The position numbers and the translations under genes are program-made. Shown one piece after another: positions 4,099-28,552 of a DNA stretch of 64,000 bases. The stretch's first letter is position 1. The number at the start of each line of letters is the position of its first letter. The notes under the pieces were generated by a model. It made no database searches, was not told the DNA's origin, and saw nothing but the letters and a program-made list of their open reading frames with translations. The stretch comes from Deltaproteobacteria bacterium (lineage in GTDB: Bacteria; UBA10199; GCA-002796325; JACPFF01): assembly GCA_016210045.1 (NCBI GenBank), contig JACQUX010000041.1:72789-136788 (forward strand). The letters are read 5' to 3'.

Positions 4099-4725
4099 AT
4101 GTCTACTTATCCCAACTACTATGACTTGCTCGGCGTGGCGCCGAATGCGCCAGTGATGGCGATCCGGAAGGCCTATCGCGCGCGGATGCTCAAACTGCGC
4201 AAACACCCCGATCTTGGGGGGTCCAATGATGGCGCGGTCTTGTTAAACGAAGCGTACGCGGTCTTGAAGGACCGGGAGCGGCGCGCCGCGTACGATCGCC
4301 TGTTTCTCGCGACGATCGCGGAACCGCTCGCGACCGCGAAACCGGCGCGCGCGGCAGGTCGGGAGCGCCGACGTGCGACGCGGGTCGGATACGCGGGCCA
4401 TGTGCATGTGCGCGTTGGACGGATCGGCGTCGTTCAACCAGGCCAGTGTCGTGACCTCTCGACTGGCGGCCTGTGTCTCAAAACTGTCGCGGCGTTGCGC
4501 CCCGGCACTGCGTTGGGGCTCGTCTTCGCCGACGATCCCGGGCTGATGTTGGAAGGCGAAGTGCGTTGGGTCCGTCCGGTGCCGCAACGCTTCGGCGCGA
4601 TACTGTACGAAGGCGGCGTGGAATTCACCGACGTCAACTTGCTCCGGTTTCAGCAATTCTGCGAACGGCTGGGGTTGCAAAACGAATTGGCTCAATCGCC
4701 GACGGAACGCTCAGCCCGACGGTAG
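4099..4725 (+). CDS. J-domain (DnaJ-like, HPD motif) fused to C-terminal PilZ c-di-GMP-binding domain
   Basis: The N-terminus YYDLLGV…AYRARMLKLRKHPDLGG…AYAVLKD…RRAAYD is a canonical J-domain. The C-terminus has the RxxxR motif (RRRATR) and DxSxGG motif (DLSTGG) of PilZ. Confidence 0.7.
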   Translation: MSTYPNYYDLLGVAPNAPVMAIRKAYRARMLKLRKHPDLGGSNDGAVLLNEAYAVLKDRERRAAYDRLFLATIAEPLATAKPARAAGRERRRATRVGYAGHVHVRVGRIGVVQPGQCRDLSTGGLCLKTVAALRPGTALGLVFADDPGLMLEGEVRWVRPVPQRFGAILYEGGVEFTDVNLLRFQQFCERLGLQNELAQSPTERSARR

Positions 4726-5511
4726 CGTGGTCCGCTGACGTGGCACGCCGCGCAACCGCACGGCGCCATCTTCCGCCGCTTCCAGTGTATGCGGCAGTAG
4801 CGCAAGATCGTTTATGTTAACGCGCTCCGCGGTCACGACTTCTGGTTCTGCCAACGCGCGCCACAACACCAAGGCCCCGAACCCGAGACTCTCAAGTGGT
4901 CGGGCACCAATATGACTGAGTTGGCCGCCTACACCGTCAAACAGCGGCGATGCGTGGAGTCCAAAAAACGTGGGCACCCACGCCAGAGCCAAGTCGAGTG
5001 GACGACCTGGAAGTGCGACTTGATGGGGAACCGTGTAGACGGCGCCCACTAAGCGATGCGACGCTGCCTGTTGTACTCTGGCCAGTGGAACGGCCTGCAC
5101 TAATCGACCCAGCAATTCGAGTTCTTCGCACTGCGCTTCCAACTGCGCCGTCAGCTGCGGCGCCCACTCCGCCACAACACGGTCGCTGGGATCAACCGCT
5201 GCGCCCGGGCCATCGGGCCGCGGAACGGAGGCCCGGCCGTCTCTGGCCACGTGCGCCACTCGATGGCGAAGAGTCGCCATTTCTCGCGGATCGATACGCG
5301 CGCCATCCAGCACGAGTTGGAATGCAACGGGGTGCCCCTTGGCACACGCTCCCGATCGGCGTGCGATCGTGGCTCGAACCACTGCGGTTTCCAGCTGGAC
5401 CACGTGCGGCACGATCTCCCGCGCCACCTGTCGCAACGCCGCACTTCGGCGCGCCCATCCAGGAAGTTCTCGCACTGCGGAAAACCGTGGCTGACTTGGC
5501 GCTGTCCTCAT
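4711..5511 (-). CDS. hypothetical protein (266 aa), last gene of minus-strand AOS/acyltransferase block
   Basis: Balanced amino-acid composition, whereas the overlapping plus-strand ORF 4950..5528 is a Pro/Arg-rich artefact. No recognisable motif. It is co-oriented 107 bp downstream of the GNAT-like gene. Confidence 0.35.
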   Translation of the reverse strand: MRTAPSQPRFSAVRELPGWARRSAALRQVAREIVPHVVQLETAVVRATIARRSGACAKGHPVAFQLVLDGARIDPREMATLRHRVAHVARDGRASVPRPDGPGAAVDPSDRVVAEWAPQLTAQLEAQCEELELLGRLVQAVPLARVQQAASHRLVGAVYTVPHQVALPGRPLDLALAWVPTFFGLHASPLFDGVGGQLSHIGARPLESLGFGALVLWRALAEPEVVTAERVNINDLALLPHTLEAAEDGAVRLRGVPRQRTTLPSG

Positions 5512-5617
5512 ACGTCTATCCTCCGTGATTCGTCACAGCCGTTTCCATTCCGGAACGGCTCGCTGATCAAGCCGATCTTCGTCTCGACGTCACTGATGGC
5601 GCTCATGCGTTGAAGAA

Positions 5618-6724
5618 TTACAGACGTTGCTCGTACAGGCGGTAGGCCTTCTGGCGCTGGCTCCCAGTAAAGACGGCCAAGTCGTTCATCCCTTTATTCG
5701 AGCCGAGGATCCAGCTGATTTCGCCGTAGGTGTAGCCGGCCACAACGGCGCGCGCAAACGACTCGCGAAGCAGCAAACAGCCCACACCATGTTTTTGATA
5801 TTCGGGGAGAATGGCGATGGCGTACCCACGAATCCCTTGAATGCGGTTCCGGCAGCGCCACATACGATAGAACCCCTTGGGGAACAGGCGTCCGTTACAA
5901 TCGGCGAACAGGTCATTGAAGTTCGGCAAGTTGATCACGGCCCCGACCGGACGCCCGGCCACTTCGGCGATGAGGATGATGCGCGGATCGGCAAGCAGGC
6001 GCAGATCGTGCGCCATTTTTCGCGCATGTGCGGATGAAAATGGCACGAAGCCCCAGTTATTTTTTAGGCCCTCGTTGAACAGTGCACGGAGCAGTTCGGC
6101 TTCGGCATAAAGCCGATCCATTTGGATTTCTCGCACCTGAAATTGCGGAATGCGGTCCGCAACCGCCGCGCGCTCGATGAGGGTCGATGGCAGCGGATGG
6201 TCTTTATCGCCCCGATACGCATGGAGATCCATGACCGTTTGCAGTCCGGCCGCTTCCATTTGTGCTGGATAATACGGTTTTGAGTAGGCCATCATGAATG
6301 TGGGACGATGCTCAAAACCTTCCGTGAGAAAACCGGGCGCCGGATCTTCGAGTCGAAAATTGCATGGGCCGACCATTTTTTGCACGCCACGCACGCGCAG
6401 CCACTCGCTCGCTGCGGTTAGCAGGGCCTGCGCGACAGTCGGGTCGTCGATCGCTTCATAAAAACCGAACGCGCCCGATGGCGCACCGACCGCGTCCACT
6501 TGCGCCGAGATCCGCCCCACGACTTCGCGCCCGCGCCGCGCCAAAAACAGTGCGGCATCGCCTTTGCGAAAATAGGGATTTTTTTTACGATTGAGTCGCT
6601 GCGCAAGTTCCAGCCGCAAGGGCGCAACCCATGCCGGATCGGTGCGGTACAATCGCCACGGCAACGCAAGGAAGCGGCGTTGCTGCCACCACGTGCGCAC
6701 TTGTTCGACAGAGATTGGCAACAT
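5618..6724 (-). CDS. large GNAT-like N-acyltransferase (368 aa)
   Basis: The C-terminal half has acyl-CoA N-acyltransferase-like features (…RIILIAEVAGRPVGAVINLPNF…GIRGYAIAILPEYQKHGVGCLLL…). At 368 aa it is about twice the size of a minimal GNAT, as seen in N-acyl-amino-acid/ceramide-synthase-like or FemAB-like families. It lies 53 bp downstream of the alpha-oxoamine synthase. Confidence 0.55.
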   Translation of the reverse strand: MLPISVEQVRTWWQQRRFLALPWRLYRTDPAWVAPLRLELAQRLNRKKNPYFRKGDAALFLARRGREVVGRISAQVDAVGAPSGAFGFYEAIDDPTVAQALLTAASEWLRVRGVQKMVGPCNFRLEDPAPGFLTEGFEHRPTFMMAYSKPYYPAQMEAAGLQTVMDLHAYRGDKDHPLPSTLIERAAVADRIPQFQVREIQMDRLYAEAELLRALFNEGLKNNWGFVPFSSAHARKMAHDLRLLADPRIILIAEVAGRPVGAVINLPNFNDLFADCNGRLFPKGFYRMWRCRNRIQGIRGYAIAILPEYQKHGVGCLLLRESFARAVVAGYTYGEISWILGSNKGMNDLAVFTGSQRQKAYRLYEQRL

Positions 6725-6777
6725 AGTCAGATTACCGTAGTTTTCTCAGCAGGTTCAGAAGTGGTGATACGTCCCCA

Positions 6778-8040
6778 TCACAGTAAATCGTCGAGGTTGT
6801 AGTACGGCGCGGCAGGCAGCGTGGTGGGGTCGCCGGGAAGATCTTCGCGTCGCAAACGATACGTGGGCGCCAATTTGCGGAACGCTTCGATGATCGTGGT
6901 TAAGTCGGCGCGCTGGTGTGTGGCCATGTATGACGTTCGGATAAGCGCGTGACCATACGGGACTGCCGGATAGGCCACGGGCGTGGCGAACACGCCTTCC
7001 TCGCGCAATGCCATCGCGAGTTTCATCGCACGACCTTCGGGACCGACCCAAATCGACAAGATCGGCGCGGCCGACGGCATTAAGTAAACGCCCAATTCTT
7101 CGAACCCATGCCGCACAAAATGGACATTCTCCCACAATCGCGTGCGGTGCTCCGGTTCACTTTCGATGACGTCGAGCGCGGCCAACGCCGCCGCAGCGTT
7201 CGCCGGCGCCAGCCCAGCGCTGAACCAAAGCGAGCGGGCCTTGTGGCGGATATATTCCATCACGGCGGCCTCGCCGGCAACGAAGCCCCCGATCGAGGCC
7301 AGCGACTTCGAGAACGTCCCCATCAGCACGTCGATCGCGTCCATGCACTGAAAATGTTCGCCGATCCCACGGCCGGTGGCACCGAAAACGCCGAATCCAT
7401 GCGCATCGTCGACATACAAACACAACTGCGGCGTGTCGTGCTTGATCCGCACCAGCTCCGGCAATGGGGCCAACGTGCCCGTCATCGAAAAAACGCCGTC
7501 GGTGACGATCGCCGCGCCGCCGGTCACGGTCGTGGCCGCCACTTGCGCGCGACACGCCGCCGCATCGGCGTGGGCGTAACGCACCACTTGCCCCCGACTT
7601 TGACGACAGCCGTCGATGATCGACGCATGGTTTTCGTCGTCGCTGAAAATGACGTCGCCTTCGTCGAACAGACACCCAATGGCGCCTAAATTGGACATGA
7701 AGCCCGTCGCAAACACCAAGGCCTCTTCTTTGCCGACAAATTTCGCCAGCCGCGCTTGCAATTCTTCGTGCAACTTCAGATTGCCGTTTACTAAACGCGA
7801 GCCGCTGCAGCCGGTTCCAAAACGCCGCGTGGCCTGAATCGCGGCCTCGCGGACTTTTGGATGATGCGTCAGACCGAGGTAGTTATTCGAGACCGCCATC
7901 ACGAGCGTGCGGCCGTCACATTGCACGCGCGGACCTTCCGATTCTTCGATCGGTTGGAAAAATGGATACGCGCCCACGCCCTTCACAAACTGGGTCTGGA
8001 GGCAAAATTCGCGACATTTGTCGAAGAGATCAATTGGCAT
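6778..8040 (-). CDS. PLP-dependent alpha-oxoamine synthase family (BioF/Kbl/Spt-like)
   Basis: The translation is a class-II aminotransferase with the AOS hallmarks NNYLGL, SDxxNHASIIDG, DDAHGFG and the GTFSKSLASIGGF lysine motif. The start is placed at MPIDLF. The listed ORF extends 18 codons further upstream, to 8094. Confidence 0.8.
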   Translation of the reverse strand: MPIDLFDKCREFCLQTQFVKGVGAYPFFQPIEESEGPRVQCDGRTLVMAVSNNYLGLTHHPKVREAAIQATRRFGTGCSGSRLVNGNLKLHEELQARLAKFVGKEEALVFATGFMSNLGAIGCLFDEGDVIFSDDENHASIIDGCRQSRGQVVRYAHADAAACRAQVAATTVTGGAAIVTDGVFSMTGTLAPLPELVRIKHDTPQLCLYVDDAHGFGVFGATGRGIGEHFQCMDAIDVLMGTFSKSLASIGGFVAGEAAVMEYIRHKARSLWFSAGLAPANAAAALAALDVIESEPEHRTRLWENVHFVRHGFEELGVYLMPSAAPILSIWVGPEGRAMKLAMALREEGVFATPVAYPAVPYGHALIRTSYMATHQRADLTTIIEAFRKLAPTYRLRREDLPGDPTTLPAAPYYNLDDLL

Positions 8041-8162
8041 CGATTGGCGGCGGACGCTATACCGACGGGCGCTGGCAGTCAAATGGAGATGCAAGGTCGG
8101 AGAATGATTCGCTCACCAATATTCGCTTTGCACGAACGTGCAGCGCGATTAGGAATCTCCGC

Positions 8163-9377
8163 ATGCGTGCGCTGGAATATCGCCTCTCCATTCCCCGCTA
8201 TCTGATGAGCCGAGCATGTGCGCGGATTTGGCCGCATCGCTTTGTGCGCTTGGTGTCATCGCTACGATTGCGGGACGTCGCGGAACCGACGCTCCCTGGT
8301 CCGGAATGGGTGCGGATACGCGTAGAACGCTGTGGCATTTGCGGCAGCGATTTGAACGCGCTGCGGGGCGAGGAATCGTATTCGATGGAGCCGTACGCAA
8401 GCTTTCCCGCGGTAATGGGCCACGAAATCATCGGTCGCGTGGTCGAGTGTGGATCAAGCGTGCGCGACGTCGCGGAGCAGACGCGCGTCGCCGTCGAAAA
8501 CGTGTTGCCGTGCGCTGCGCGCGGGATCACGCCGCCGTGTCCGGCCTGTGCGGCGGGCGATTATGCGGTGTGCGAAAATTTCACGCAGGGAAATTTACCG
8601 CCGGGTGTGATTACCGGATTCACGCGCGGGCTCGGTGGCGGATGGGGAGAAACGGTCGTTGCCCATCGCTCGCAACTCTTTCCCGTCCCAGAATCGATCC
8701 CGCTGGATCAGGCCGTGTTGATCGATTCAATCGCGTCGGCGCTGCAACCTGTAGCGGATCATTTTCCCGCCGCACACGAAACCGTTTTAGTAATCGGCGC
8801 CGGGATCATTGGGCTGCATGTTGTGCAATGTCTGCGGTTCGCCGGATTTACCGGATCGCTGCTTGTTGTGGCGCGGCATGATTTCCAGGCCGCGTGGGCG
8901 GAGCGGCTCGGCGCGACGCATGTCTTGCGGCGCGATCTCATCCCAGCAATTGCGAACCTCACTGGGGCGCGACTCTATCGGCCAACCCTCGGACTGCCCG
9001 TATTGGATGGCGGCGTAGACCGCGTCTTCGATTGCGTCGGCGCGTCGGGGACAATCGACATGGCGCTCCGCGTGCTCCGCAAACGGGGAAGCTTGATCGT
9101 CGTCGGCACCGCAAGTCAGTTGAACCGCGTCGATGCCTCGCCGCTGTGGTTTAAAGAAATTCGGATGACCGGGAGCGCGATGTTTGCGCATAGCACGGTG
9201 CGCGGACTCCGCCAACGCACGTATCAGCACGTCATCGACGGACTCGCGCAAGGCACGTTGCGCGGCAATGGCCTCGTCACGCACCAATTCCCGCTCCGCG
9301 CATATGCGCACGCGCTGACGGTGGCGCTCGATAAAAGGCGTTTTCAGAGTCTGAAGGTCGCTTTTACGCCGGATTGA
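8163..9377 (+). CDS. zinc-dependent medium-chain dehydrogenase/reductase (alcohol/threonine-dehydrogenase-like)
   Basis: Catalytic Zn motif CGICGSD…GHEIIG. Structural Zn cysteines CPACAAGDYAVCEN. Rossmann motif VIGAGIIG. The start is placed at MRALEYRL. The listed ORF's upstream extension from 7857 is rejected. Confidence 0.75.
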   Translation: MRALEYRLSIPRYLMSRACARIWPHRFVRLVSSLRLRDVAEPTLPGPEWVRIRVERCGICGSDLNALRGEESYSMEPYASFPAVMGHEIIGRVVECGSSVRDVAEQTRVAVENVLPCAARGITPPCPACAAGDYAVCENFTQGNLPPGVITGFTRGLGGGWGETVVAHRSQLFPVPESIPLDQAVLIDSIASALQPVADHFPAAHETVLVIGAGIIGLHVVQCLRFAGFTGSLLVVARHDFQAAWAERLGATHVLRRDLIPAIANLTGARLYRPTLGLPVLDGGVDRVFDCVGASGTIDMALRVLRKRGSLIVVGTASQLNRVDASPLWFKEIRMTGSAMFAHSTVRGLRQRTYQHVIDGLAQGTLRGNGLVTHQFPLRAYAHALTVALDKRRFQSLKVAFTPD

Positions 9378-9408: not shown

Positions 9409-9993
9409 ATGGATTTGTTCACCGAAGCACTCGAACAACTGACCACGCTGTTGGCGCAAGTGCGCCAAATCGGGTTGCACGAACCGACCGCGATGACGCT
9501 CGCCACGGCCGATCGGGACGGACGGCCCAGCGCGCGGACGGTCTTGCTCAAAGGCGTCGATGCCGACGGATTAGTCTTTTTCACCAACAGCGAGAGTCGC
9601 AAGGGCGAACAACTGTTGGCCAATCCATACGCAGCGATTTGTTTCCACTGGGATGCGCTCAAGCAGCAAGTGCATCTGGAAGGTCCCGTCGCGCCGGTCT
9701 CCACGGCCGAATCGGATGCGTATTGGGAAACGCGGCCACGCAAGAGTCAGATCGGGGCGTGGGCCTCGCAACAATCGCGCTCACTGGTACGACGCATCGA
9801 TTTAGTCACCCAGATCGTCAAACTGACGGCGAAGTTTCTCGGACGCCCCATCCCGCGCCCACCGTATTGGCAAGGATTCCGGCTCCAACCGGAGCGCATC
9901 GAATTTTGGCATGCGCGGCCGTTCCGTCTCCATGAGCGGATTTTGTATCAACGACATGGCGACACCTGGACCAAGGAATTGCTGTACCCATAA
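9409..9993 (+). CDS. pdxH: pyridoxamine 5'-phosphate oxidase
   Basis: …PSARTVLLKGVDADGLVFFTN.ESRKG.QL..NP.AAICFHW…IEFWHARPFRLHER matches the PNPOx family signature over its full length. Confidence 0.85.
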   Translation: MDLFTEALEQLTTLLAQVRQIGLHEPTAMTLATADRDGRPSARTVLLKGVDADGLVFFTNSESRKGEQLLANPYAAICFHWDALKQQVHLEGPVAPVSTAESDAYWETRPRKSQIGAWASQQSRSLVRRIDLVTQIVKLTAKFLGRPIPRPPYWQGFRLQPERIEFWHARPFRLHERILYQRHGDTWTKELLYP

Positions 9994-10001
9994 ACAACTG
10001 C

Positions 10002-10766
10002 ATGACGCCCGAGTTCACGACACAACTCTTCTGGCTTTGCCCCGTTGTCTTCGTGGCGGGATTCATCGACGCGATCGCCGGCGGGGGCGGGCTGCTCACC
10101 GTGCCGGCGTATTTGTTGGCCGGTCTGCCGCCGGTCTCGCTGCTGGGGACCAATAAGTTCGTTTCCACGCTCGGAACACTCATCTCGACGGGGAAATATA
10201 TGTGGAGCGGACGCATGCACTGGCCGGCGGCGCTGATCGGTCTGCCCGCGACATTAATCGGCGCAATGTACGGCGCCCACACCGTGACGCATCTCGATCC
10301 AGCCATCGTCCGCAGCGTCATCCTCGTGGCCTTACCAATCGCCGCGATCCTGACGTTGCTCCCCAAACCGCGCATGCTCAATACGCACGCGGCCGCGACC
10401 TGGACCACGCCGCGTCTGTGGTGGACCGTGATCCCTGTGGCAGTACTACTCGGATGGTACGACGGCTTCTTCGGCCCCGGCACCGGCACTATCCTCGTGC
10501 TGTTACTCTACAGCATCGTCCGCTTGCCGTTTTTGCAAGCGGCTGCGGTCGCGCGCTTCTTTAATTTAGTCTCCAATGCGGGGGCGCTCGTCACGTTCGT
10601 CTGGAACGATCAAGTCCTGTACCGCATCGGCCTACCGTTGGCCGCAGCCAGTATCGCCGGCCACTACTGCGGCAGCCATTTGGCGCTGCGGCGCGGCGAC
10701 GGCTTCGTGCGCGCGATGCTCGCGGTTTCGTGCAGTTTGGTCGTGGTGTATTTGCTGTGGCAATGA
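10002..10766 (+). CDS. TSUP-family (TauE/SafE) sulfite/anion exporter
   Basis: 8-TM protein with duplicated GGGG.LTVP / GPGTGT motifs typical of TauE/SafE. Confidence 0.8.
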   Translation: MTPEFTTQLFWLCPVVFVAGFIDAIAGGGGLLTVPAYLLAGLPPVSLLGTNKFVSTLGTLISTGKYMWSGRMHWPAALIGLPATLIGAMYGAHTVTHLDPAIVRSVILVALPIAAILTLLPKPRMLNTHAAATWTTPRLWWTVIPVAVLLGWYDGFFGPGTGTILVLLLYSIVRLPFLQAAAVARFFNLVSNAGALVTFVWNDQVLYRIGLPLAAASIAGHYCGSHLALRRGDGFVRAMLAVSCSLVVVYLLWQ

Positions 10767-10923: not shown

Positions 10924-11787
10924 TTACTCAATGCAGCAGGAATACTCTTCGCCGGCCACTTCGACAAAAACCGCTTCGTTCGCGGCGCAGATATGGAGAC
11001 ACGCGTGCAGTTCCGCGTCAACTTGATCGGTGGGCGCGAGCGACTTACTGCCGGTCGCTGACGGACTGAACGTCACGCCGACGGTGGCGATATTCCGCAT
11101 CTTGACGTCGGTCTGTTTGAAGCCGGGGAGACTCGCATACGTCTCGATGTGCCGCAGTTCGATCGTGCCGGCCCCGCTCAAGTTGGTCGTATCGAGATCG
11201 AACGATCCGCTATTGCCGATTCCGAAATGATAGATGTTGGTTGCGCCACCACTGACCGTGCCAGACTTGACGTACAGATCGACCGCCCCGCTGTTCGGCA
11301 TCTGGGCCGGGTCCCAGGTGATCGCCACGCTGCTGCCGGACACGGCCGCTCCGGCTAACGGCGCGGTGATCGGCGCGACACTGCTCGTCAACACGCTCAC
11401 GGTCGTGACCTGTTGCGCGGAATCAGTATACGTCAGGTAGTAACGCCCCTCCGCCTTCGTCTTCGTCACACTGGCACTGTAGAATTTATCGAGTTCCAGA
11501 AAGGCATCGTACGACAGCGACACACTGGCCGACACGCCACTCGCGCCTTCCGATGCCGCTTGCAATGACTCGCCTTGCGTGAGCTCGATCGCGACATCGC
11601 TCTCCGGCGTCTTGATCGCGGCGTCCACGCCGACGGTGTCGGAATCGAGATACTCATCGATAAACGCGGCTAATCGCACATCCGCGGCCTGCGTGGATTT
11701 CAGTTCATCGCTCTGCACCGCTTGACACGCAGCGAGTAGGACAACGCTCAGCACACTAATCCAACGACACGTGCTCAAGTTGTTCAT
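10924..11787 (-). CDS. hypothetical lipoprotein
   Basis: Start taken at MNNLSTCRWISVLSVVLLAAC, a signal peptide plus LAAC lipobox. The body is Ser/Thr/Gly-rich and beta-rich. The Cys-rich C-terminal tail is …HACLHICAAN…YSCCIE. Confidence 0.5.
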   Translation of the reverse strand: MNNLSTCRWISVLSVVLLAACQAVQSDELKSTQAADVRLAAFIDEYLDSDTVGVDAAIKTPESDVAIELTQGESLQAASEGASGVSASVSLSYDAFLELDKFYSASVTKTKAEGRYYLTYTDSAQQVTTVSVLTSSVAPITAPLAGAAVSGSSVAITWDPAQMPNSGAVDLYVKSGTVSGGATNIYHFGIGNSGSFDLDTTNLSGAGTIELRHIETYASLPGFKQTDVKMRNIATVGVTFSPSATGSKSLAPTDQVDAELHACLHICAANEAVFVEVAGEEYSCCIE

Positions 11788-11905
11788 ACACGTATCCTCC
11801 TTATAGTTACGTACTATATCGACCGTGGCTGGCAAGAAGTTGCGCGTTATCGCGACAGAAAGCGTATTCAATGGAATAGCTGCAATGAATCCGGCGGATT
11901 GGCGT

Positions 11906-13003
11906 TCACACTATTTCGGCGACCATCCGCCCAATCGCCGGCGCGGCAGTCAATCCGGGCGATTCAATCCCGATCAGATGAATATGCGGGCCGTCGCGAA
12001 AAATCTGAAAATCGCCGAGGGGTTTGCCGTCTTCGTAGACCTTGGGACGATTCCCCGCATAGGCCGGAACGAAATCGTCGGGATTGCCGACGGGGGCGTA
12101 GTGGGCCGCTTCGCGCACGAAATCCTCGCGCGGCGTCACCAGATCGTAGTTCGTCTTTTGCGCCCAATCGAGTTCAACTTGGGTCGGGCCGACAAATAAT
12201 TGGCCGCCGGTGTCACGATGCAAGTGAATCCCCATGCTGCTGACCAGCCGTTTGTCGCGTTCACCGCCGGCGAGGTAGCGCCGCGGCACGGGATACACCA
12301 CGGAGCGGATCTGGCCCGTCTTCCAAATGTAATATTCCCCTTTGAACGGTTTGATCCGAAACTTTCTCGTCCCGCCGCACATCGCATAGACATCGTCTGC
12401 CCACAGTCCGGCGGCATTCACGAGCAGCGAATATTCCATTTCGCCACGCGAGGTCGTGATCACTTGCTTCACCGGATCGATTGCGGTTACGGCACACGGA
12501 TACAACACATAGCAATTTTCCTGCGCCGCCAAGTAACGCTCCAACGCACGAATATATTCCGCCGCGTCCATCATCCCGGAGGTGCGGGAATAGACCGCGC
12601 CTGCGAAACGATGGCAACTCGGCTCGGCCTGCGCGACTTCGTCGGCGCTGGCTGCGCGCATCCCCTCAACACCGCACGTTGCGCCGATCTCGAGGACCTT
12701 CTCGAGTGCGGGCAATTCCTCCGGGGAAAAGGCGACCACCCATTTCCCCTCGGCGTGGTGTGTGACTCCCAGCTTGCGTAGCCATTCGTAAGAGAGGCGA
12801 TTCCCTTCTACGCACAACCGCGCCTTCAACGACCCCATCGGATACGCAAACCCGGCGTGGATCACTTGGCTATTGCGCCCTGACGTGTGGTCTCCCAAAA
12901 ACGGAGCCTGCTCACACACCATGATGTCGGGATGATTCGGCCGCGCCGCCAGCGCGATCGCGACATGCAGACCAACGACGCCCCCACCGACGACAAAGAT
13001 CAT
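11906..13003 (-). CDS. FAD-dependent oxidoreductase (LhgO / glycerol-3-P dehydrogenase-like family)
   Basis: N-terminal dinucleotide-binding motif IFVVGGGVVG. The fold is DAO-like through to a C-terminal G(I)ESPGLTAAPAIG motif. Confidence 0.7.
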   Translation of the reverse strand: MIFVVGGGVVGLHVAIALAARPNHPDIMVCEQAPFLGDHTSGRNSQVIHAGFAYPMGSLKARLCVEGNRLSYEWLRKLGVTHHAEGKWVVAFSPEELPALEKVLEIGATCGVEGMRAASADEVAQAEPSCHRFAGAVYSRTSGMMDAAEYIRALERYLAAQENCYVLYPCAVTAIDPVKQVITTSRGEMEYSLLVNAAGLWADDVYAMCGGTRKFRIKPFKGEYYIWKTGQIRSVVYPVPRRYLAGGERDKRLVSSMGIHLHRDTGGQLFVGPTQVELDWAQKTNYDLVTPREDFVREAAHYAPVGNPDDFVPAYAGNRPKVYEDGKPLGDFQIFRDGPHIHLIGIESPGLTAAPAIGRMVAEIV

Positions 13004-13054
13004 ACAGCCGTGATTTAGCAGGCCGTGCGATCGCTTGCTACAAGAAATTCCGCG

Positions 13055-13951
13055 CTAGGGTTCAACGGACGGCACGGGTTCCGGCTCCAGGCAGGCCGGT
13101 TCGGCGGCGCGCAAGCGATCCCAGACATCCACACACATCCCTGCGTTCCCGTCCATTTTCCCGGCCAACCGTTCGGTGCCGACCCGATCCACGCACTGTG
13201 GTGAACCAAAGTGGTCGTCATTTCCCTCGTCGCCGAAATAGTGTCCGAGTTCGTGCGCAATGGAAAACCTCATCATCCCCGCAATCGTGGATTGGGGATG
13301 CTTCTCATCCCCCGGGCAATGCGACGTCTGATCCGATTTCCGCCACACGCAGGTCAAACCATCTTGCCCGCGACAGGCCCCGTCACTCGACGTCTTTCGC
13401 AGCGGACTGTGCTCGCCATCAAAGCCCGTGATGTAACCACACCCCCCAAACGGATGGATCGCCTGGATCGCCGCGCCATACACGACCGGTCGATTCCCGT
13501 AATAGACGTCCGTGGAGACCCGTTGACAGAATGCCGGATCGCGCGTTCGCAGGAACTCCTGCTCCGCCGGCGTAGCGCCGAAGGCCCCTAGTCGATAGCC
13601 GCCAAAGGAACTGGTCATCTCATCCGTCACAAGCACCACCACATAATCCGGCGTGTCCGCGGCGGTCTTCGTCAAATAGGTGGTCATGATCTGCTGCGCG
13701 TCCGGATTTTTTTCCGGGGGATGTTGCGTGGAATATTGTCCGAACCGCCCGTAACAGAGTTCCGTCAGTCGGAACTGTTTGCCGGTGAGTTGTCGTAACT
13801 GACGACTCGCCTGACGCACCCCCTCCGCGATCGTCATCCCGGTCGGCAGGCTGGCGTCTTCATTCGCCACCACGGCAACACGAATCGTCTGCGGATCGAA
13901 GCCCTTCGACCGCACGGCCGGCCCCGGATAACAACGGAGTTCATCCCCCAT
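13055..13951 (-). CDS. putative zinc metallopeptidase (HEXXH zincin motif)
   Basis: Contains IAHELGHYFGD, i.e. HExxH followed by Gly. There is no obvious signal peptide and the family is not assigned. Confidence 0.45.
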   Translation of the reverse strand: MGDELRCYPGPAVRSKGFDPQTIRVAVVANEDASLPTGMTIAEGVRQASRQLRQLTGKQFRLTELCYGRFGQYSTQHPPEKNPDAQQIMTTYLTKTAADTPDYVVVLVTDEMTSSFGGYRLGAFGATPAEQEFLRTRDPAFCQRVSTDVYYGNRPVVYGAAIQAIHPFGGCGYITGFDGEHSPLRKTSSDGACRGQDGLTCVWRKSDQTSHCPGDEKHPQSTIAGMMRFSIAHELGHYFGDEGNDDHFGSPQCVDRVGTERLAGKMDGNAGMCVDVWDRLRAAEPACLEPEPVPSVEP

Positions 13952-14118
13952 ACAGTCTCAGTATCGGCGCTGGCGCAGGGGGAAGTTGCCCCGGCCGCGC
14001 GCCGCGCTGGTGTGTTCCAGTGTGTTCTCCAGAACACGGTTTCTCCTCGCAATGGCTTATCTTTCGCGCAACTTTCTGGCAGAGCGCACCGATAACTCAA
14101 ACAGCCACACCGGAGAAC

Positions 14119-14979
14119 ATGATGAAAGGCGCGCTCGACATCTTTTCGTATAACAACTACCGGAAACTCCTGGAAGATTTCTATCAGGAGCAAAAGGCGG
14201 CCGCGAAGTCCGTGGTCTCGCACCGCTACTTGGCTCGCCGTGCCGGTTTTGCGTCGTCCAACTTCATCTACCTCGTTATCAAGGGTCGTCGAAATTTGAG
14301 CTACGACAGCATCCAGCGGATAGCGCGCGTACTGGGCCTGACCAAGCGGGAACTCCTGTTCTTCGAAGGCCTCGTGCATTGCAACCAAACGACCGACCCG
14401 ACCGAAAAAGAACAGGCCTTCCGCAAGATGCTGGCCTTCCGCGAATATCGCGAGGCGCGCCAGATCTCGGCGGAGCAATATGACTACTTCGCGAAGTGGT
14501 ACTATCCGGTCATCCGCGAAATGGTGAACTTACGCGAATTCCGCGAAGAGCCGGCCTGGATTGCGAAGACGCTCACGCCCAGCATCGCGGTCGACGCGGC
14601 CCGTGAAGCGTTGGAAAAATTACAACAGCTCGGCCTATTAGTGCGCGCTGCCGACGGCCGATTGCGCCAGGCCGATCAGAATCTCACCACCACGACCGAC
14701 GGCGAGGCCGCGTCCGCAGCGTTGCTCAGCTTTCATCAGTCGATGATCGAACATGGCAAACGGAGTCTCGCCCAGCCGGCCGCGACGCGCGAAGTCTCCG
14801 CATTGACGCTTTCTCTCTCCGATCGTCAATTTCGCGAGATCAAGGCGCGCATTCAAACCTTGCATCGCGACGTGCAGGCCCTGATCGCCAATAGCGGTGA
14901 CGAACCGGTCGATCATATCTGCCAACTCAATTTCCAACTCTTTGGACTAACGCAATTAGAAAAAAGGAGACTGTCATGA
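14119..14979 (+). CDS. TIGR02147-family protein (function unknown; N-terminal HTH-like region)
   Basis: From MMKGALDIFSYNNYRKLLEDFYQEQK… through …YLARRAGFASSNFIYLVIKGRRNLS, this matches the conserved family recalled from Fibrobacter, Bdellovibrio and myxobacteria. The stop overlaps the next start (ATGA). Confidence 0.5.
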   Translation: MMKGALDIFSYNNYRKLLEDFYQEQKAAAKSVVSHRYLARRAGFASSNFIYLVIKGRRNLSYDSIQRIARVLGLTKRELLFFEGLVHCNQTTDPTEKEQAFRKMLAFREYREARQISAEQYDYFAKWYYPVIREMVNLREFREEPAWIAKTLTPSIAVDAAREALEKLQQLGLLVRAADGRLRQADQNLTTTTDGEAASAALLSFHQSMIEHGKRSLAQPAATREVSALTLSLSDRQFREIKARIQTLHRDVQALIANSGDEPVDHICQLNFQLFGLTQLEKRRLS

Positions 14980-16523
14980 AATCCAATCGCATCTATGCAT
15001 GGCTCACGATTATGCTGCTGGTCAGCATGAGTAGCGCCTGCTCCTCCACTGGCCCAAGTGCGGGCGAGTCAGGGAGCAACGGAACGAGTAGCGGCGAAAC
15101 TCCGCCAACGGGGACAAGTGGAGAGGCGACGGAAACTGCGACTGAGGAGAACACGACCACGCCGGCCGTTGGTGGCAGCACTTCGGCGGGCAATCCGATC
15201 ACGTTCGACATTGGTGGCGCCAAGGCATTAGTCATCACGGATGAAGCGGCGACTACCACTACGACGAATCTGAAAAAACTCGTGGGTGACGAACTGCTCG
15301 ACGTCGTCTCAGTGACAAACGCTACAGCAAGCACCACGAAATCGCTTCGCGCCAACACCAAGGCCACGGAAGACGGTCAGGACTTACCGAAGATTGCCCA
15401 CATCGCGACCGGCCCCAATGGCGAAATTGTCCTTGGGTTGAGCGGTGAAATAACGGTGAACGAACAGCCCTGCCGCATGATTCGTCTCTCTGGCGCCAAC
15501 GCGGAGACCGCCGATGTGCAATGCGTGGGCATTGCTGGTGAAGATGCGCGTCAACTGTGGGTGGCGAAAACCTGGGTCGGGGACAAATGGGAGCCCGTTC
15601 CTGCGATGCGTGACCGCGTCCAATTCGATGCGGCCGGGAATCTCTACTACATCGCAACCTATCAAGGAACCCAAGAGACGATCGACGGACAACCGTCAAC
15701 CACGGAGGCCATTACTAAGTGGCAACACAGCGACGGGACGTTCACGCAATACGTGCAAAGCGGTGCCGATGGAGACCGCTATCTCCTGAACTTTCAGGTC
15801 TTATCGGATGGTCTCGTTTTTTATTCCGCGATGCGCCCAACTAACTACGAGATCTTTCGGTATATCACCAACGGCCAGATTGTGACTGCGGAGATCGCCG
15901 GCACCAATTTCTTTGTCGATGAGAGCACGCAGCAACTCATTGCCAGCTCATTATGGCCGGCCGGTCTGTATGCACTTCCCTACACGGAGAGCGGTTTTGG
16001 CCCTCCGCAGATGATCGCCGGCAAGGGAAAGGGGATCGGGACACCGGGAGAGATCCTCCTCGATGGGAGTGAATTAGGTTACTTTGAACGCCTCACGGAC
16101 GGCACGATCATCGGGTTGCCGGTTGTGGCCATGTGCTGGACATTAGATGAGTCATGTTCAACATACAGCGTCCTTGCCAAGGTCTTCCCAGACGAACCTT
16201 CTCTTATCCAATCGCCATTGCAAGGGATCACTGCGTTTAAAGCCATCGACGACGATCTCTACCTTTCCGGCACTGCGACCGATGATGCCCATGACTTCAT
16301 CCGCATGTCGGTCGACGATCCGGCCAATGCGCTGCACTTCTTTCCCGACGAAGACATTCAACTGCTCCACTTCGTCAAGATCGATGACGTCATCTATTTC
16401 GCCGCGCGGCGCTTCCCGGGAAAGACGCACTTCTTCGGCAAGATCGACCTCAGTAAAGGGACCACATATCAAGAGCTGAGCGCGCTGCAGGCGGAGATTC
16501 TGGACCTGAAGACCCTCTTCTAA
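14976..16523 (+). CDS. hypothetical lipoprotein (515 aa), translationally coupled to TIGR02147 gene
   Basis: AAAAAGGAGA Shine-Dalgarno 6 nt upstream of the ATG. Signal peptide plus lipobox (LVSMSSAC). Long Ser/Thr/Gly/Glu-rich linker, followed by a beta-rich domain. Confidence 0.6.
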   Translation: MKSNRIYAWLTIMLLVSMSSACSSTGPSAGESGSNGTSSGETPPTGTSGEATETATEENTTTPAVGGSTSAGNPITFDIGGAKALVITDEAATTTTTNLKKLVGDELLDVVSVTNATASTTKSLRANTKATEDGQDLPKIAHIATGPNGEIVLGLSGEITVNEQPCRMIRLSGANAETADVQCVGIAGEDARQLWVAKTWVGDKWEPVPAMRDRVQFDAAGNLYYIATYQGTQETIDGQPSTTEAITKWQHSDGTFTQYVQSGADGDRYLLNFQVLSDGLVFYSAMRPTNYEIFRYITNGQIVTAEIAGTNFFVDESTQQLIASSLWPAGLYALPYTESGFGPPQMIAGKGKGIGTPGEILLDGSELGYFERLTDGTIIGLPVVAMCWTLDESCSTYSVLAKVFPDEPSLIQSPLQGITAFKAIDDDLYLSGTATDDAHDFIRMSVDDPANALHFFPDEDIQLLHFVKIDDVIYFAARRFPGKTHFFGKIDLSKGTTYQELSALQAEILDLKTLF

Positions 16524-21482: not shown

Positions 21483-24008
<2,526 letters not shown>

Positions 24009-24017
24009 TCATCTGCT

Positions 24018-24069
24018 TCCCCTCTCCCCGATGGGGAGAGGGATCCGCCCCAGGCGGAGGGTGAGGGCC
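24018..24069. repeat. partial copy of the palindromic intergenic repeat (single hairpin + GGGTGAGGG core)
   Basis: CCCCTCTCCCC-GAT-GGGGAGAGGG followed by …GGAGGGTGAGGGCC, in the gyrB-recF spacer. Confidence 0.45.
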
Positions 24070-24109
24070 TAACATGCACCGCCCCACGAGTAAAGGATTC
24101 CCCGCGTTT

Positions 24110-26301: not shown

Positions 26302-26574
26302 GAGTCCCTCACCGCGAAATAGCCTTCTAATAAGAATTTATATATATAAAAATAGTAGTAGTAGTAGCACCTGTGGAAATGTGGGTAACGCTGTTAACTC
26401 CCGGACGGCGCTACGTAATCGCATGTGGACCCACTGGGAACAACCGGCGACACTCATCCACAGCCGAACATCGCGCGGGACTCTAACGTTGCCCGCCAAG
26501 CGTTGTCAACACGACAATCCCGGACTGATCCACAGTTTGCTGGGGATAAAAAACAGCGCAGTACTTCATCGCGT
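26302..26574. promoter_or_regulatory. candidate oriC (dnaN-dnaA intergenic)
   Basis: The lowest-GC stretch in the window is TAATAAGAATTTATATATATAAAAA at 26329-26352, a candidate DNA-unwinding element, followed by a (TAG)5 repeat. DnaA-box-like 9-mers, each 1-2 mismatches from TTATCCACA, lie in either orientation:
- TGTGGAAAT at 26373-26381.
- CATGTGGAC at 26422-26430.
- TCATCCACA at 26454-26462.
- TGATCCACA at 26527-26535.
- TGGGGATAA at 26541-26549. Confidence 0.5.
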
Positions 26575-27951: not shown

Positions 27952-27971
27952 GGTCAACCCCGTCCACATAC

Positions 27972-27993
27972 CTATCCACAGGCTGTGGATGAC
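27972..27993. promoter_or_regulatory. inverted pair of DnaA boxes immediately upstream of dnaA start (autoregulatory site candidate)
   Basis: Read directly from the sequence: CTATCCACA, then GGC, then TGTGGATGA (the reverse complement of TCATCCACA). Confidence 0.5.
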
Positions 27994-28328: not shown

Positions 28329-28363
28329 CTTGACAGGCACCGCCAAACCCGCATAACTCGCGC
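28329..28363 (+). promoter_or_regulatory. sigma70-type promoter candidate for rpmH-rnpA-yidD-yidC
   Basis: TTGACA at 28329-28334, a 17-nt spacer, then ATAACT. It is preceded by A/T tracts (GGAATTTTTTGGCAATATTTTTTTT, CAAAAAAAATCG). Confidence 0.45.
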
Positions 28364-28398
28364 CTCACGCAACGTCTCAATCACGCGAGGAAATTTCG

Positions 28399-28545: not shown

Positions 28546-28552
28546 TTACTTC

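What the first reader, a model, noticed from the sequence alone, without database searches (positions are those of the whole stretch)
4711..9377. Alpha-oxoamine synthase + oversized GNAT-like N-acyltransferase + unknown 266-aa gene, divergent from a Zn-dehydrogenase: candidate aminolipid / sphingoid-like pathway (alternatively Kbl/Tdh threonine catabolism)
Three co-oriented minus-strand genes run AOS (6778-8040), a 368-aa GNAT-like acyltransferase (5618-6724) and a 266-aa unknown (4711-5511). They sit head-to-head with a Zn-dependent MDR dehydrogenase (8163-9377). This block has two readings.
(a) A condensation, reduction and N-acylation route to an N-acylated amino-alcohol or ceramide-like lipid. 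AOS enzymes include serine palmitoyltransferase, and bacterial ceramide synthases are GNAT-type.
(b) The classical threonine degradation pair Tdh + Kbl, with an unrelated acyltransferase.
The 53-bp AOS-to-GNAT spacing and the large size of the GNAT favour a dedicated acylation step. The AOS lysine motif GTFSKSLASIGGF fits none of BioF, Kbl or Spt cleanly.
Basis: inference. Interest (0 to 1): 0.5.

Follow-up and report, generated by a model that had tools for sequence, protein, structure and literature searches.

The report
Bacterial ceramide genes with unusual reductase
This is a bacterial gene cluster for making the ceramide (sphingolipid) backbone, ordinary in two of its enzymes, but the usual ketone-reducing enzyme appears to be replaced by an unrelated zinc-dependent dehydrogenase that has not been linked to this pathway before.

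Summary
The four ORFs exist at the stated coordinates.

- **AOS (6778-8040, -).** It is Spt-like. Its best HMM and best PDB match are serine palmitoyltransferase, and its PLP-lysine motif is almost identical to that of Sphingobacterium Spt. It has Ala, not Lys, at the position that marks cysteate acyltransferases.
- **"Oversized GNAT" (5618-6724, -).** It is a tandem-GNAT protein of the bacterial ceramide synthase (bCerS) family. It sits directly downstream of an Spt-like gene in 46 of 80 species loci across many phyla.
- **Zn-MDR (8163-9377, +).** It is not Tdh. It belongs to a monophyletic MDR subfamily that lies next to Spt-like genes in about 11 independent loci with different gene orders. 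None of these loci has the known reductase CerR in its flanks. The 80 other bCerS loci carry a CerR-like SDR in 52 cases and this MDR in none.
- **Best explanation.** Spt, then bCerS, then an MDR-type 3-ketoreductase that is probably NADPH-dependent and cytoplasmic, giving dihydroceramide.
- **Kbl/Tdh reading.** Rejected.
- **266-aa ORF.** It is a real gene but a narrow-lineage orphan, and it is not a conserved part of the system.

All functions are inferred from sequence and gene context. None was assayed.

The parts
6778..8040 (-). Spt-like alpha-oxoamine synthase (PLP-dependent). Inferred reaction: serine + acyl-thioester -> 3-ketosphinganine.
   Evidence: - Pfam Aminotran_1_2, E 4e-54.
- Best NCBIfam model is SerpalmtaseCFB at 432 bits, ahead of bioF 380 and Kbl 348. 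All are below their cut-offs.
- Best PDB match is S. multivorum Spt at 342 bits, against 217-233 bits for Kbl chains and 275 for the Thermus BioF/Kbl chain.
- The PLP-Lys motif differs from SmSpt at 2 of 19 positions.
- Ala, not Lys, at the SulA-Lys281 position (PMC9304779).
- Falls in a clade of MDR-linked AOS genes with 170/200 NJ bootstrap support.
5618..6724 (-). bCerS-family tandem-GNAT N-acyltransferase. Inferred role: N-acylation of the long-chain base.
   Evidence: - 36% identity over the full length (E 7e-82) to the GNAT that occupies the cerS position in a Caulobacter-type locus, L047.
- 591 confirmed relatives in species genomes. In the 80 best loci an AOS lies directly upstream in 46.
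8163..9377 (+). Zn-dependent MDR dehydrogenase. Proposed 3-ketoreductase standing in for CerR.
   Evidence: - Pfam ADH_N plus ADH_zinc_N.
- Catalytic Zn ligands C57/H87/E88 and the four structural-Zn Cys residues are invariant.
- Not Tdh: 83-93 bits against cut-offs of 380-458.
- AOS-linked MDRs are monophyletic, 181/200.
- Lies next to an Spt-like AOS in L001, L002, L004, L009, L090, L094, L097, L117-L120.
- R/K after strand beta-2, where TPP-linked relatives have E/D.
8041..8162 (.). Divergent intergenic spacer (122 bp) between the AOS and the MDR. Presumed shared promoter region.
   Evidence: - Sequence read directly. An AGGA lies 9 nt before the MDR ATG.
- The sigma-70 consensus scan found nothing above chance.
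- No Rfam family matched.
- The same divergent layout occurs in L001, L002, L090 and L120.
4711..5511 (-). Lineage-restricted orphan gene (266 aa) downstream of the GNAT. Membership in the pathway is doubtful.
   Evidence: - Real coding gene: codon-position substitutions 68/55/146 against the L116 homologue.
- Only 2 representatives in 1.84 billion proteins.
- No Pfam or NCBIfam hit.
- Absent from all other related loci.
- AF2 pLDDT 36.

Best explanation
The block encodes synthesis of a ceramide-type (N-acyl sphingoid) lipid backbone.

1. **Condensation.** The Spt-like PLP enzyme condenses an amino acid, most likely L-serine, with a long-chain acyl-CoA or acyl-ACP to give 3-ketosphinganine. 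This is inferred from homology and active-site residues.
2. **N-acylation.** The tandem-GNAT protein of the bCerS family N-acylates the amine. This is inferred from homology and synteny.
3. **Reduction.** The divergently transcribed Zn-dependent MDR dehydrogenase reduces the C3 ketone to the alcohol.
   - This is the job done elsewhere by CerR (an extended SDR), or by KDSR and BT_0972 (classical SDRs).
   - The assignment rests on conserved gene linkage and on the mutually exclusive occurrence of the two enzymes in the flanks examined.

The MDR probably prefers NADPH and works in the cytoplasm. I infer both points from sequence alone. Its first residues align with the conserved N-terminus of its MDR relatives, and I saw no hydrophobic signal-like segment, but no signal-peptide predictor was run.

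Whether reduction comes before or after N-acylation cannot be decided here. The 266-aa ORF is not part of the conserved system.
For: **Spt-like AOS**
- The Spt model is the best HMM and Spt is the best PDB match.
- The motif is near-identical to SmSpt, and the Asn (SNNYLGL), His (NHASIIDG), Lys and Arg (LIRTS) residues are conserved.
- Ala occupies the SulA-Lys281 discriminator position (PMC9304779).
- AOS genes from loci that carry both bCerS and CerR, namely Myxococcus L068 (513 bits) and L006 (458 bits), also fall below the 640-bit CFB cut-off. The window protein scores 432.

**bCerS family**
- L047 reproduces the Caulobacter layout described in PMC11324152: aasR, cerR, acpR, spt, a kinase, LptF2, LptG2, GNAT.
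- The L047 Spt passes the NCBIfam SptBetaP cut-off (597 > 500).
- The window GNAT is 36% identical to the L047 GNAT over its full length.
- In the 80 species loci, 57 have an AOS, 46 have it directly upstream, and 52 have a CerR-like SDR.

**MDR as the reductase**
- It lies next to an Spt-like AOS in about 11 independent loci with at least three gene orders.
  - Divergent: window, L001, L002, L090, L120.
  - MDR then AOS in tandem: L094, L097, L117, L119.
  - Convergent downstream: L009.

- None of these loci has a CerR-type SDR within 7-10 kb. None of the 80 CerR-era loci has the MDR.
- AOS-linked MDRs form a clade (181/200). MDR-linked AOS genes also form a clade (170/200), which suggests the two have diversified together.
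- L117-L119 add a GT21 (ceramide-glucosyltransferase family) enzyme, GT4 enzymes and a MacB-type exporter, which fits a glycolipid product.
- The window has no CerR homologue. Its one Epimerase-family gene is a YfcH protein (TIGR01777, 326 bits).
Against: - No enzyme activity or lipid was measured.
- The AOS fails every curated NCBIfam Spt cut-off. MDR-linked AOS genes form their own subfamily, so a different amino-acid substrate is possible.
- Only 64 kb of this genome, and 7-10 kb either side of the related loci, could be inspected. A CerR or a BT_0972-like SDR could be encoded elsewhere.
- MDR relatives at 35-40% identity sit beside a TPP enzyme with no AOS nearby, so the wider family is not specific to sphingolipids.
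- L117-L119 lack a bCerS-type GNAT within 8 kb.
- The NADPH preference is inferred from a single sequence position.
Confidence: 0.62

Rival explanations
1. Classical threonine catabolism: the MDR is L-threonine 3-dehydrogenase, the AOS is 2-amino-3-ketobutyrate CoA ligase (Kbl), and the GNAT is unrelated.
For: - An MDR plus AOS gene pair is the architecture of tdh-kbl (established knowledge).
- Automatic source labels call MDR relatives 'threonine dehydrogenase-like'.
- The Thermus BioF/Kbl enzyme is the second-best PDB match of the AOS, at 275 bits.
Against: - Tdh models score 83-93 bits against cut-offs of 380-458. Kbl models score 288-348 bits against cut-offs of 460-493.
- Spt scores higher than Kbl in both the HMM and PDB searches.
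- The GNAT is tightly and widely syntenic with this AOS family.
- The MDR has R/K, not an acidic residue, at the cofactor-specificity position.
Confidence: 0.03
2. The AOS and GNAT make the ceramide backbone, but the MDR is not the 3-ketoreductase. It acts on something else, such as a polyol or sugar head group or another carbonyl. A CerR or BT_0972-type SDR encoded elsewhere in the genome does the reduction.
For: - Closest named models are polyol or inosose dehydrogenases: IolM 112 bits, PRK10083 109 bits. JGI labels include 'erythritol/L-threitol dehydrogenase'.
- The Desulfobaccales loci are rich in glycosyltransferases.
- Only partial genomes could be inspected.
- In Bacteroidota and some other phyla the sphingolipid genes are not clustered (PMC11334938).
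Against: - The one invariant partner of the MDR across four lineages is the AOS. Glycosyltransferases are absent from the window, L001, L002, L009, L094 and L120.
- The MDR and the CerR-like SDR never occur together in any inspected locus.
- The two families appear to have diversified together.
Confidence: 0.2
3. The MDR-linked AOS subfamily uses a different amino acid (alanine, glycine, cysteate or threonine), so the product is a 1-deoxy-, sulfono- or other non-canonical N-acyl amino-alcohol lipid rather than a serine-derived ceramide. The three-step logic stays the same.
For: - MDR-linked AOS genes form a separate clade and miss all curated Spt cut-offs.
- A TauE/SafE sulfo-anion exporter family gene lies next to the MDR in L004 and close to it in the window.
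- A sulfotransferase neighbours the MDR-AOS pair in L097.
- Ding et al. attribute 1-deoxy- and sulfono-1-deoxy-ceramides in the Black Sea to Desulfobacterota and/or Bacteroidota (PMC11334938).
Against: - The window AOS has Ala, not the Lys that marks cysteate acyltransferases (PMC9304779).
- It scores higher against Spt (342 bits) than against SulA/CFAT (239-247 bits).
- Its active-site motif is almost identical to that of a serine-specific Spt.
Confidence: 0.13

Closest known systems
Bacterial ceramide pathway Spt / bCerS / CerR of Caulobacter crescentus (CC_1162, CC_1154, CC_1164; PMC11087976, PMC11324152)
   Same: - An Spt-like condensing enzyme and a bCerS-family N-acyltransferase.
- The same three chemical steps: condensation, N-acylation and C3 keto reduction.
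- The bCerS homologue lies next to Spt, as in many non-proteobacterial phyla.
   Different: - The reductase is a Zn-dependent MDR (about 400 aa, GroES-like plus Rossmann fold), not the NDUFA9-like extended SDR CerR.
- It shows no obvious export signal and is probably NADPH-type, whereas CerR is reported to be periplasmic (PMC11087976).
- No dedicated ACP (acpR) or acyl-ACP synthetase (aasR) was found in the window.
- The AOS and GNAT look co-transcribed here, whereas in Rhodobacteria cerS is said always to lie in a separate operon (PMC11324152).
3-ketosphinganine reductases KDSR/Tsc10 (eukaryotes) and BT_0972 (Bacteroides thetaiotaomicron; PMC9278070)
   Same: The proposed reaction is the same: NADPH-dependent reduction of the C3 ketone of the long-chain base.
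   Different: - Those enzymes are classical short-chain dehydrogenases (about 30 kDa, Tyr-x-x-x-Lys, no metal). This one is a zinc MDR.
- BT_0972 is not clustered with spt. This MDR is adjacent to the AOS.
Tdh-Kbl pair (L-threonine 3-dehydrogenase + 2-amino-3-ketobutyrate CoA ligase)
   Same: - A Zn-MDR paired with an AOS-family PLP enzyme.
- Related chemistry: interconversion of a 2-amino-3-hydroxy and a 2-amino-3-keto compound next to an AOS reaction.
   Different: - Neither protein reaches the Tdh or Kbl model cut-offs.
- The AOS is Spt-like and linked to bCerS.
- The cofactor position suggests NADPH and therefore the biosynthetic direction.
Sulfonolipid (capnine) pathway: SulA/CFAT cysteate acyltransferase (PMC9304779)
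   Same: An AOS-family condensation of an amino acid with a fatty acyl thioester, followed by reduction and N-acylation.
   Different: - The window AOS lacks the diagnostic Lys281, having Ala instead.
- It matches Spt better than SulA.
Tandem-repeat GNATs with solved structures (MshD 1ozp, GlcN N-acetyltransferase 5kf1, MAB_4324 7q3a)
   Different: - Only 12-15% sequence identity.
- Those enzymes transfer acetyl groups to amino-sugars or small amines, not long acyl chains to a sphingoid base.

Membership tests
Serine palmitoyltransferase (Spt, AOS family) | PLP-binding lysine in a GTFSKS-type motif, plus the conserved Asn/His/Asp/Arg active-site residues | tested here: met
   Alignment to SmSpt 8guh: MGTFSKSLASIGGFVAGEA against MGTFSKSLASLGGFVAGDA. 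SNNYLGL, NHASIIDG, DDAHG and LIRTS are conserved.
Serine palmitoyltransferase (Spt, AOS family) | Scores above the curated NCBIfam Spt equivalog cut-offs | tested here: not met
   CFB 432 against 640, BetaP 341 against 500, AlphaP 243 against 670. AOS genes from loci that carry bCerS and CerR (L068 513 bits, L006 458 bits) also miss the CFB cut-off.
Serine palmitoyltransferase (Spt, AOS family) | Closer to Spt than to Kbl, BioF, ALAS, CqsA or SulA | tested here: met
   HMM ranking: Spt-CFB 432, bioF 380, Kbl 348, ALAS 241, CqsA 186. PDB: Spt 342, BioF/Kbl 275, SulA 247, Kbl 233.
Serine palmitoyltransferase (Spt, AOS family) | Alanine, not lysine, at the position of SulA Lys281 (the published Spt/SulA discriminator) | tested here: met
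   The window reads WFSAG, SmSpt reads MFSAS and SulA 7u7h reads LYAKS (PMC9304779).
Serine palmitoyltransferase (Spt, AOS family) | Catalyses serine + palmitoyl thioester -> 3-ketosphinganine | not testable with these tools
   Needs an enzyme assay or heterologous expression with LC-MS.
Bacterial ceramide synthase (bCerS / CerS, CC_1154 family) | Homology to the N-acyltransferase of the Caulobacter-type sphingolipid locus | tested here: met
   36% identity over the full length, E 7e-82, to the GNAT at the cerS position of L047. L047 has the order aasR, cerR, acpR, spt, kinase, LptF2, LptG2, GNAT, and its Spt passes the NCBIfam cut-off.
Bacterial ceramide synthase (bCerS / CerS, CC_1154 family) | Genomic association with Spt, and usually with CerR, across phyla | tested here: met
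   Of 80 species loci, 57 have an AOS, 46 have it directly upstream on the same strand, and 52 have a CerR-like SDR.
Bacterial ceramide synthase (bCerS / CerS, CC_1154 family) | GNAT-fold acyl-CoA N-acyltransferase | tested here: met
Bacterial ceramide synthase (bCerS / CerS, CC_1154 family) | N-acylates 3-ketosphinganine or sphinganine | not testable with these tools
   Needs biochemistry.
Ceramide reductase CerR (CC_1164 family) | NDUFA9-like extended SDR (Epimerase/3beta-HSD fold) | tested here: not met
   The reductase candidate is a Zn-MDR (ADH_N plus ADH_zinc_N). tblastn with a CerR-like SDR finds nothing in the 64-kb window at E<1e-5. The only Epimerase-family gene, 48545-49498, is YfcH (TIGR01777).
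L-threonine 3-dehydrogenase (Tdh) | Scores above the Tdh equivalog cut-offs, and has an acidic residue after beta-2 for NAD+ | tested here: not met
   TIGR00692 82.8 against 458, NF003808 92.8 against 380. The sequence after beta-2 is VARH, with no acidic residue.
Glycine C-acetyltransferase (Kbl) | Scores above the Kbl equivalog cut-offs | tested here: not met
   NF005394 348 against 460, TIGR01822 288 against 493.
[quoted passage not shown] | GroES-like and Rossmann domains, catalytic Zn ligands (Cys, His, Glu), a four-Cys structural Zn site, and GxGxxG | tested here: met
   Pfam ADH_N and ADH_zinc_N. C57, H87 and E88, the Cys residues C117/C126/C129/C137, and GAGIIG are invariant in alignment A3.

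The most novel reading that the evidence does not exclude
A monophyletic subfamily of zinc-dependent MDR dehydrogenases is a third, non-homologous class of sphingolipid 3-ketoreductase, after the KDSR/BT_0972 classical SDRs and the CerR extended SDR. It would work in the cytoplasm with NADPH and replace CerR in Desulfobacterota-type and related anaerobic lineages. This would explain part of the 'Spt-like gene without CerR' pattern seen in environmental genomes. It would also give a version of the bacterial pathway that avoids the unresolved problem of a periplasmic NADH-dependent CerR.
Probability: 0.55. Interest if true: 0.62.

Novelty: new variant of a known kind. Interest (0 to 1): 0.5.

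Why it matters
**Background.** Bacterial sphingolipid synthesis was worked out only in 2021-2022 (Spt, bCerS, CerR). Surveys now predict producers by searching for those three genes.

**Open problems in the field.**
- Ding et al. (PMC11334938) found many Spt-like genes with no bCerS or CerR nearby. They raised replacement of these enzymes by non-homologous proteins as one possible explanation.
- The field also has no explanation for how a periplasmic CerR obtains NADH (PMC11087976, PMC11324152).

**What this finding would add.**
- A conserved Spt-linked Zn-MDR would be a concrete, testable candidate for an alternative reductase.
- It would widen the marker set for predicting sphingolipid producers among anaerobes, including Desulfobaccales, Syntrophales and related "Deltaproteobacteria" MAGs.
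- It would provide a soluble, probably cytoplasmic enzyme for testing the order of reduction and acylation.

**If the MDR has another role.** The locus is then simply one more Spt-bCerS pair, and ordinary.

Tried and rejected

1. The key paper (Stankeviciute 2022) is not held, so CCNA_01212 and CCNA_01222 could not be compared directly. I used L047, a locus with the Caulobacter layout, as a proxy.
2. The first genome scan, with the 24-sequence alignment, failed because no block was conserved enough. It worked with 10 sequences.
3. The afdb50 fold library was unavailable, so the GNAT model could not be matched to a named UniProt bCerS.
4. The structure prediction of the 266-aa ORF gave pLDDT 36 and is unusable. 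Pfam and NCBIfam found nothing for it.
5. Promoter and terminator scans gave no more sites than shuffled sequence. Rfam found nothing in the window.
6. The first bootstrap script timed out. I redid it with a faster distance routine.
7. Literature searches for an MDR or Zn-ADH linked to bacterial sphingolipid synthesis found nothing. This is absence from the held library only.

**Ideas considered and rejected**
1. The 266-aa ORF as a spurious high-GC frame. Rejected on the third-position substitution bias and the syntenic homologue.
2. The Epimerase-family gene at 48545-49498 as a hidden CerR. Rejected because it is a YfcH/TIGR01777 protein with only 25-28% partial identity to CerR-like SDRs.
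3. The AOS as a cysteate acyltransferase (sulfonolipid route). Judged unlikely because of the Ala at the Lys281 position.
4. Other sphingolipid genes (ACP, acyl-ACP synthetase, kinase, LptF2/G2) elsewhere in the window. None was found. The rest of the window is the replication-origin region plus the nuo, parAB and atp operons.

Full report
**1. Observation**

| Gene | Coordinates | Strand | Length |
|---|---|---|---|
| AOS | 6778-8040 | - | 420 aa |
| GNAT | 5618-6724 | - | 368 aa |
| Unknown ORF | 4711-5511 | - | 266 aa |
| MDR | 8163-9377 | + | 404 aa |

- The AOS-GNAT gap is 53 bp and the divergent AOS/MDR spacer is 122 bp.
- Pfam gives Aminotran_1_2 for the AOS, weak Acetyltransf_1/7 for the GNAT, ADH_N plus ADH_zinc_N for the MDR, and nothing for the 266-aa ORF.
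- An identical GNAT protein is recorded from a MAG labelled 'Deltaproteobacteria bacterium' (locus tag HY696_12420) on a 222-kb contig.
- The rest of the window is core chromosome.
  - Replication-origin genes: gyrB, recF, dnaN, dnaA, yidC, mnmE, mnmG.
  - The nuo operon, gpsA, parAB and the atp operon.
  - No other recognisable sphingolipid gene was found.

**2. The AOS is Spt-like**

- *HMM ranking.* SerpalmtaseCFB 432 bits, bioF 380, BioF/Kbl subfamily 368, Kbl 348, ALAS 241, CqsA 186. No model reaches its curated cut-off.
- *Solved structures.* Sphingobacterium multivorum Spt scores 342 bits. The Thermus BioF/Kbl enzyme scores 275, cysteate acyltransferases 239-247, and Kbl chains 217-233.
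- *Lysine motif.* The window reads MGTFSKSLASIGGFVAGEA and SmSpt reads MGTFSKSLASLGGFVAGDA.
- *Spt/SulA discriminator.* The published discriminator is Lys281 in SulA and Ala in Spt (PMC9304779). The window protein has Ala (WFSAG, against SulA LYAKS).
- *The cut-off failure is not specific to this protein.* AOS genes from loci that carry both bCerS and a CerR-like SDR also miss the 640-bit CFB cut-off: Myxococcus dinghuensis L068 scores 513 and L006 scores 458.

**3. The "oversized GNAT" is a bCerS-family tandem GNAT**

- 344 homologues were found at E<=1e-5.
- In every context inspected for a relative with 41-69% identity, an AOS lies beside it. The AOS is immediately upstream in L001, L002, L006, L008 and L009. 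In L004 one gene is inserted between them. L007, at 36% identity, has an AOS about 6 kb upstream.
- A scan of one genome per species gave 591 confirmed relatives from many phyla. These include Balneolaceae, Zixiibacteriota, Ignavibacteria, Planctomycetota, Verrucomicrobiota, Chloroflexota and Myxococcus.
- In the 80 best loci:

| Feature in the locus | Loci (of 80) |
|---|---|
| AOS present | 57 |
| AOS directly upstream on the same strand | 46 |
| Epimerase-family SDR related to the one in L006 | 52 |
| AOS and SDR both present | 47 |
| The MDR | 0 |

- The link to the experimentally defined pathway is L047, from an alphaproteobacterial MAG.
  - Its order is: AMP-binding fragment, Epimerase SDR, PP-binding ACP, AOS, DAGK-like kinase, LptF, LptG, GNAT, DUF502.
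  - This matches the Caulobacter region CC_1165-CC_1152 described in PMC11324152, where the cerS gene CC_1154 follows lptF2/lptG2.
  - The L047 AOS passes the NCBIfam Spt-BetaP cut-off, 597 > 500.
  - The window GNAT is 36% identical to the L047 GNAT over its full length, E 7e-82.

**4. The MDR is the unusual part**

*What it is not.* It is not Tdh. The Tdh models give 83-93 bits against cut-offs of 380-458. The nearest named models are polyol/inosose-type dehydrogenases at about 110 bits.

*What it has.* Both zinc sites and the GxGxxG motif are intact and invariant among its orthologues.

*Gene context of orthologues and relatives:*

| Loci | MDR identity to window | Layout |
|---|---|---|
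| L001, L002/L091, L090 | 60-68% | Divergent from AOS->GNAT, as in the window |
| L004 | 67% | Divergent, with one extra gene in between |
| L009 (Syntrophales) | 46% | Convergent, downstream of the GNAT |
| L120 | about 47% | Divergent, followed by AOS->GNAT->GNAT |
| L094 | 37% | GNAT <- \| MDR -> AOS; the GNAT matches the family profile at hhalign probability 100% |
| L097 | 38% | MDR -> AOS beside a sulfotransferase |
| L117, L119 (Desulfobaccales / Thermodesulfobacteriota type) | 48-50% | MDR -> AOS -> MacB/FtsX-ABC-OEP exporter; upstream a radical-SAM/SPASM gene, GT4 enzymes, a GT21 (ceramide-glucosyltransferase family) enzyme and a flippase |
| L118 (same type) | 50% | Same set of genes, but three genes lie between the MDR and the AOS |

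*Mutual exclusion.*
- None of these loci has a CerR-like SDR in the inspected flanks.
- No CerR-type locus has the MDR.
- The 64-kb window has no CerR homologue. Its single Epimerase-family gene is a YfcH/TIGR01777 protein.

*Phylogeny.*
- In NJ trees the AOS-linked MDRs form a clade, 181/200 bootstraps including L094 and L097.
- The MDR-linked AOS genes form a clade, 170/200.
- More distant MDR relatives (35-40% identity) sit beside a TPP-dependent enzyme with no AOS nearby.

*Cofactor position.* After strand beta-2, the AOS-linked clade has A/G/V/Y-R/K-H/Y, while the TPP-linked clade has E/D-P-S. From general knowledge of Rossmann folds, this suggests NADP(H) for the AOS-linked clade and NAD(H) for the TPP-linked clade.

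*Location.* The N-terminus (MRALEY...) aligns with the start of its relatives (MKAL...), and the following ~30-residue segment 'LSIPRYL...' is conserved within the subfamily. I saw no hydrophobic leader, but I ran no signal-peptide predictor.

**5. Mechanism proposed**

Spt-like condensation, bCerS-type N-acylation, and MDR-catalysed reduction of the C3 ketone.

- *Shown.* Family assignments, conserved active-site and metal residues, conserved gene linkage, and the mutually exclusive distribution within the inspected flanks.
- *Inferred.* The substrates, the cofactor, the cellular location, and the order of acylation and reduction.
- *Chemical precedent.* The chemistry is close to that of Tdh, which acts on a 2-amino-3-hydroxy compound. 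An MDR of this general type reducing a 2-amino-3-keto long-chain base is therefore plausible.

**6. The 266-aa ORF**

- It is a genuine gene.
  - It has a syntenic homologue at 62% identity in L116.
  - Substitutions are biased to the third codon position (68/55/146), with 91 synonymous and 91 non-synonymous codon changes.
  - It is the only open frame in both sequences.
- It is confined to the closest relatives. In L001, an Aminotran_4 gene and a deaminase occupy that position.
- It has no family match and no usable structure model.
- I do not count it as part of the system.

**7. Comparison with what is known**

- Spt and bCerS are known enzymes (PMC11087976, PMC11324152).
- The known reductases are CerR (an extended SDR, reported to be periplasmic) and KDSR or BT_0972 (classical SDRs, PMC9278070).
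- Ding et al. (PMC11334938) suggested that bCerS and CerR may be replaced by non-homologous proteins in some lineages.
- Three full-text searches found no paper linking a Zn-MDR to bacterial sphingolipid synthesis.
- I therefore rate the locus as a new variant of a known kind. The Spt-bCerS core is ordinary. The reductase assignment is the new and still unproven element.

**8. Limits**

- There are no assays.
- Only partial genomes were visible.
- The trees are NJ trees on modest samples, without Kbl, BioF or ALAS outgroups.
- bCerS membership rests on a positional orthologue rather than on the tested protein itself.

Overall confidence in the three-step explanation is about 0.6. Confidence that this is an Spt-bCerS sphingolipid locus is higher, about 0.8.

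Noticed in passing
window 21483-36193: Replication-origin neighbourhood: gyrB (21483-23972, -), recF-like (24110-25180, -), dnaN (25177-26301, -), dnaA (26575-28005, -), yidC (29135-30790, +), mnmE (32868-34289, +), mnmG (34274-36193, +). The sphingolipid genes therefore lie about 20 kb from dnaA in the core chromosome, not on an island.
   Followed up: partly
window 4099-4725 (+): A DnaJ J-domain fused to a PilZ domain (208 aa). Its 3' end overlaps the convergent 266-aa ORF by 15 bp. The same DnaJ-PilZ gene is a conserved neighbour in L001 and L116.
   Followed up: partly
window 9409-10766 (+); L004 1453-2217: pdxH (PNP oxidase, which makes the PLP needed by the AOS) starts 31 bp after the MDR, followed by a TauE/SafE sulfo-anion exporter family gene. 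TauE is also the immediate neighbour of the MDR in L004. This may be coincidence, or a hint of a sulfonated substrate or product.
   Followed up: partly
L117 1-15063; L118 and L119 likewise: Desulfobaccales/Thermodesulfobacteriota-type loci combine the MDR and an Spt-like AOS with several other genes. These are a radical-SAM/SPASM protein, two or three GT4 glycosyltransferases, a GT21 (ceramide-glucosyltransferase / HpnI-like) enzyme, a Polysacc_synt flippase, and a MacB-FtsX/ABC/OEP/adaptor exporter. The set looks like a complete glycosphingolipid synthesis and export cluster. No bCerS-type GNAT lies within 8 kb.
   Followed up: partly
L097 6664-7776 (-): A Sulfotransfer_3 family protein is divergently adjacent to an MDR->AOS pair in a low-GC metagenome contig. 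This suggests a sulfated lipid in that lineage.
   Followed up: no
L120 10001-12264: Two tandem copies of the bCerS-family GNAT (370 aa each) follow the AOS. This suggests two N-acyl specificities in that organism.
   Followed up: no
L004 3733-4608 and 6175-7935: In one close relative a 291-aa gene lies between the MDR and the AOS, and a 586-aa gene lies between the AOS and the GNAT. The 586-aa protein has no Pfam match on rescanning. The 291-aa protein has none on record and was not rescanned.
   Followed up: no
L092 7908-11645; L093 1211-4100; L109 7899-11257: More distant members of the same MDR family (35-40% identity, with the same N-terminal 'SxPRF/YL' extension) are paired with a ~555-aa protein and not with an AOS. 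The L092 partner is confirmed as a TPP-dependent enzyme by Pfam. The L093 and L109 partners are inferred from their size and N-terminal similarity. This is a separate, uncharacterised two-gene module.
   Followed up: partly
window 48545-49498 (+): YfcH/TIGR01777 epimerase-family oxidoreductase with DUF1731. It follows a SAM hydroxide adenosyltransferase-family gene (47800-48582) and overlaps its 3' end by 38 bp. It is not a CerR orthologue.
   Followed up: yes
window 10924-16523: A run of genes with no Pfam match: 10924-11871 (-), 13055-13951 (-) and 14976-16523 (+), the last a Thr/Ser-rich probable lipoprotein. A DUF4423 protein lies at 14020-14979.
   Followed up: no
window 52001-64000: G+C drops from about 0.58-0.60 to 0.50-0.55, and GC skew turns strongly positive (+0.13 to +0.16) over the parAB and atp operon region.
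   Followed up: no
L008 8246-11992: In one relative that has AOS->GNAT but neither the MDR nor an SDR in its flanks, the downstream genes include an MMPL/sterol-sensing-domain transporter between two unknown proteins. This is a possible lipid-export module.
   Followed up: no
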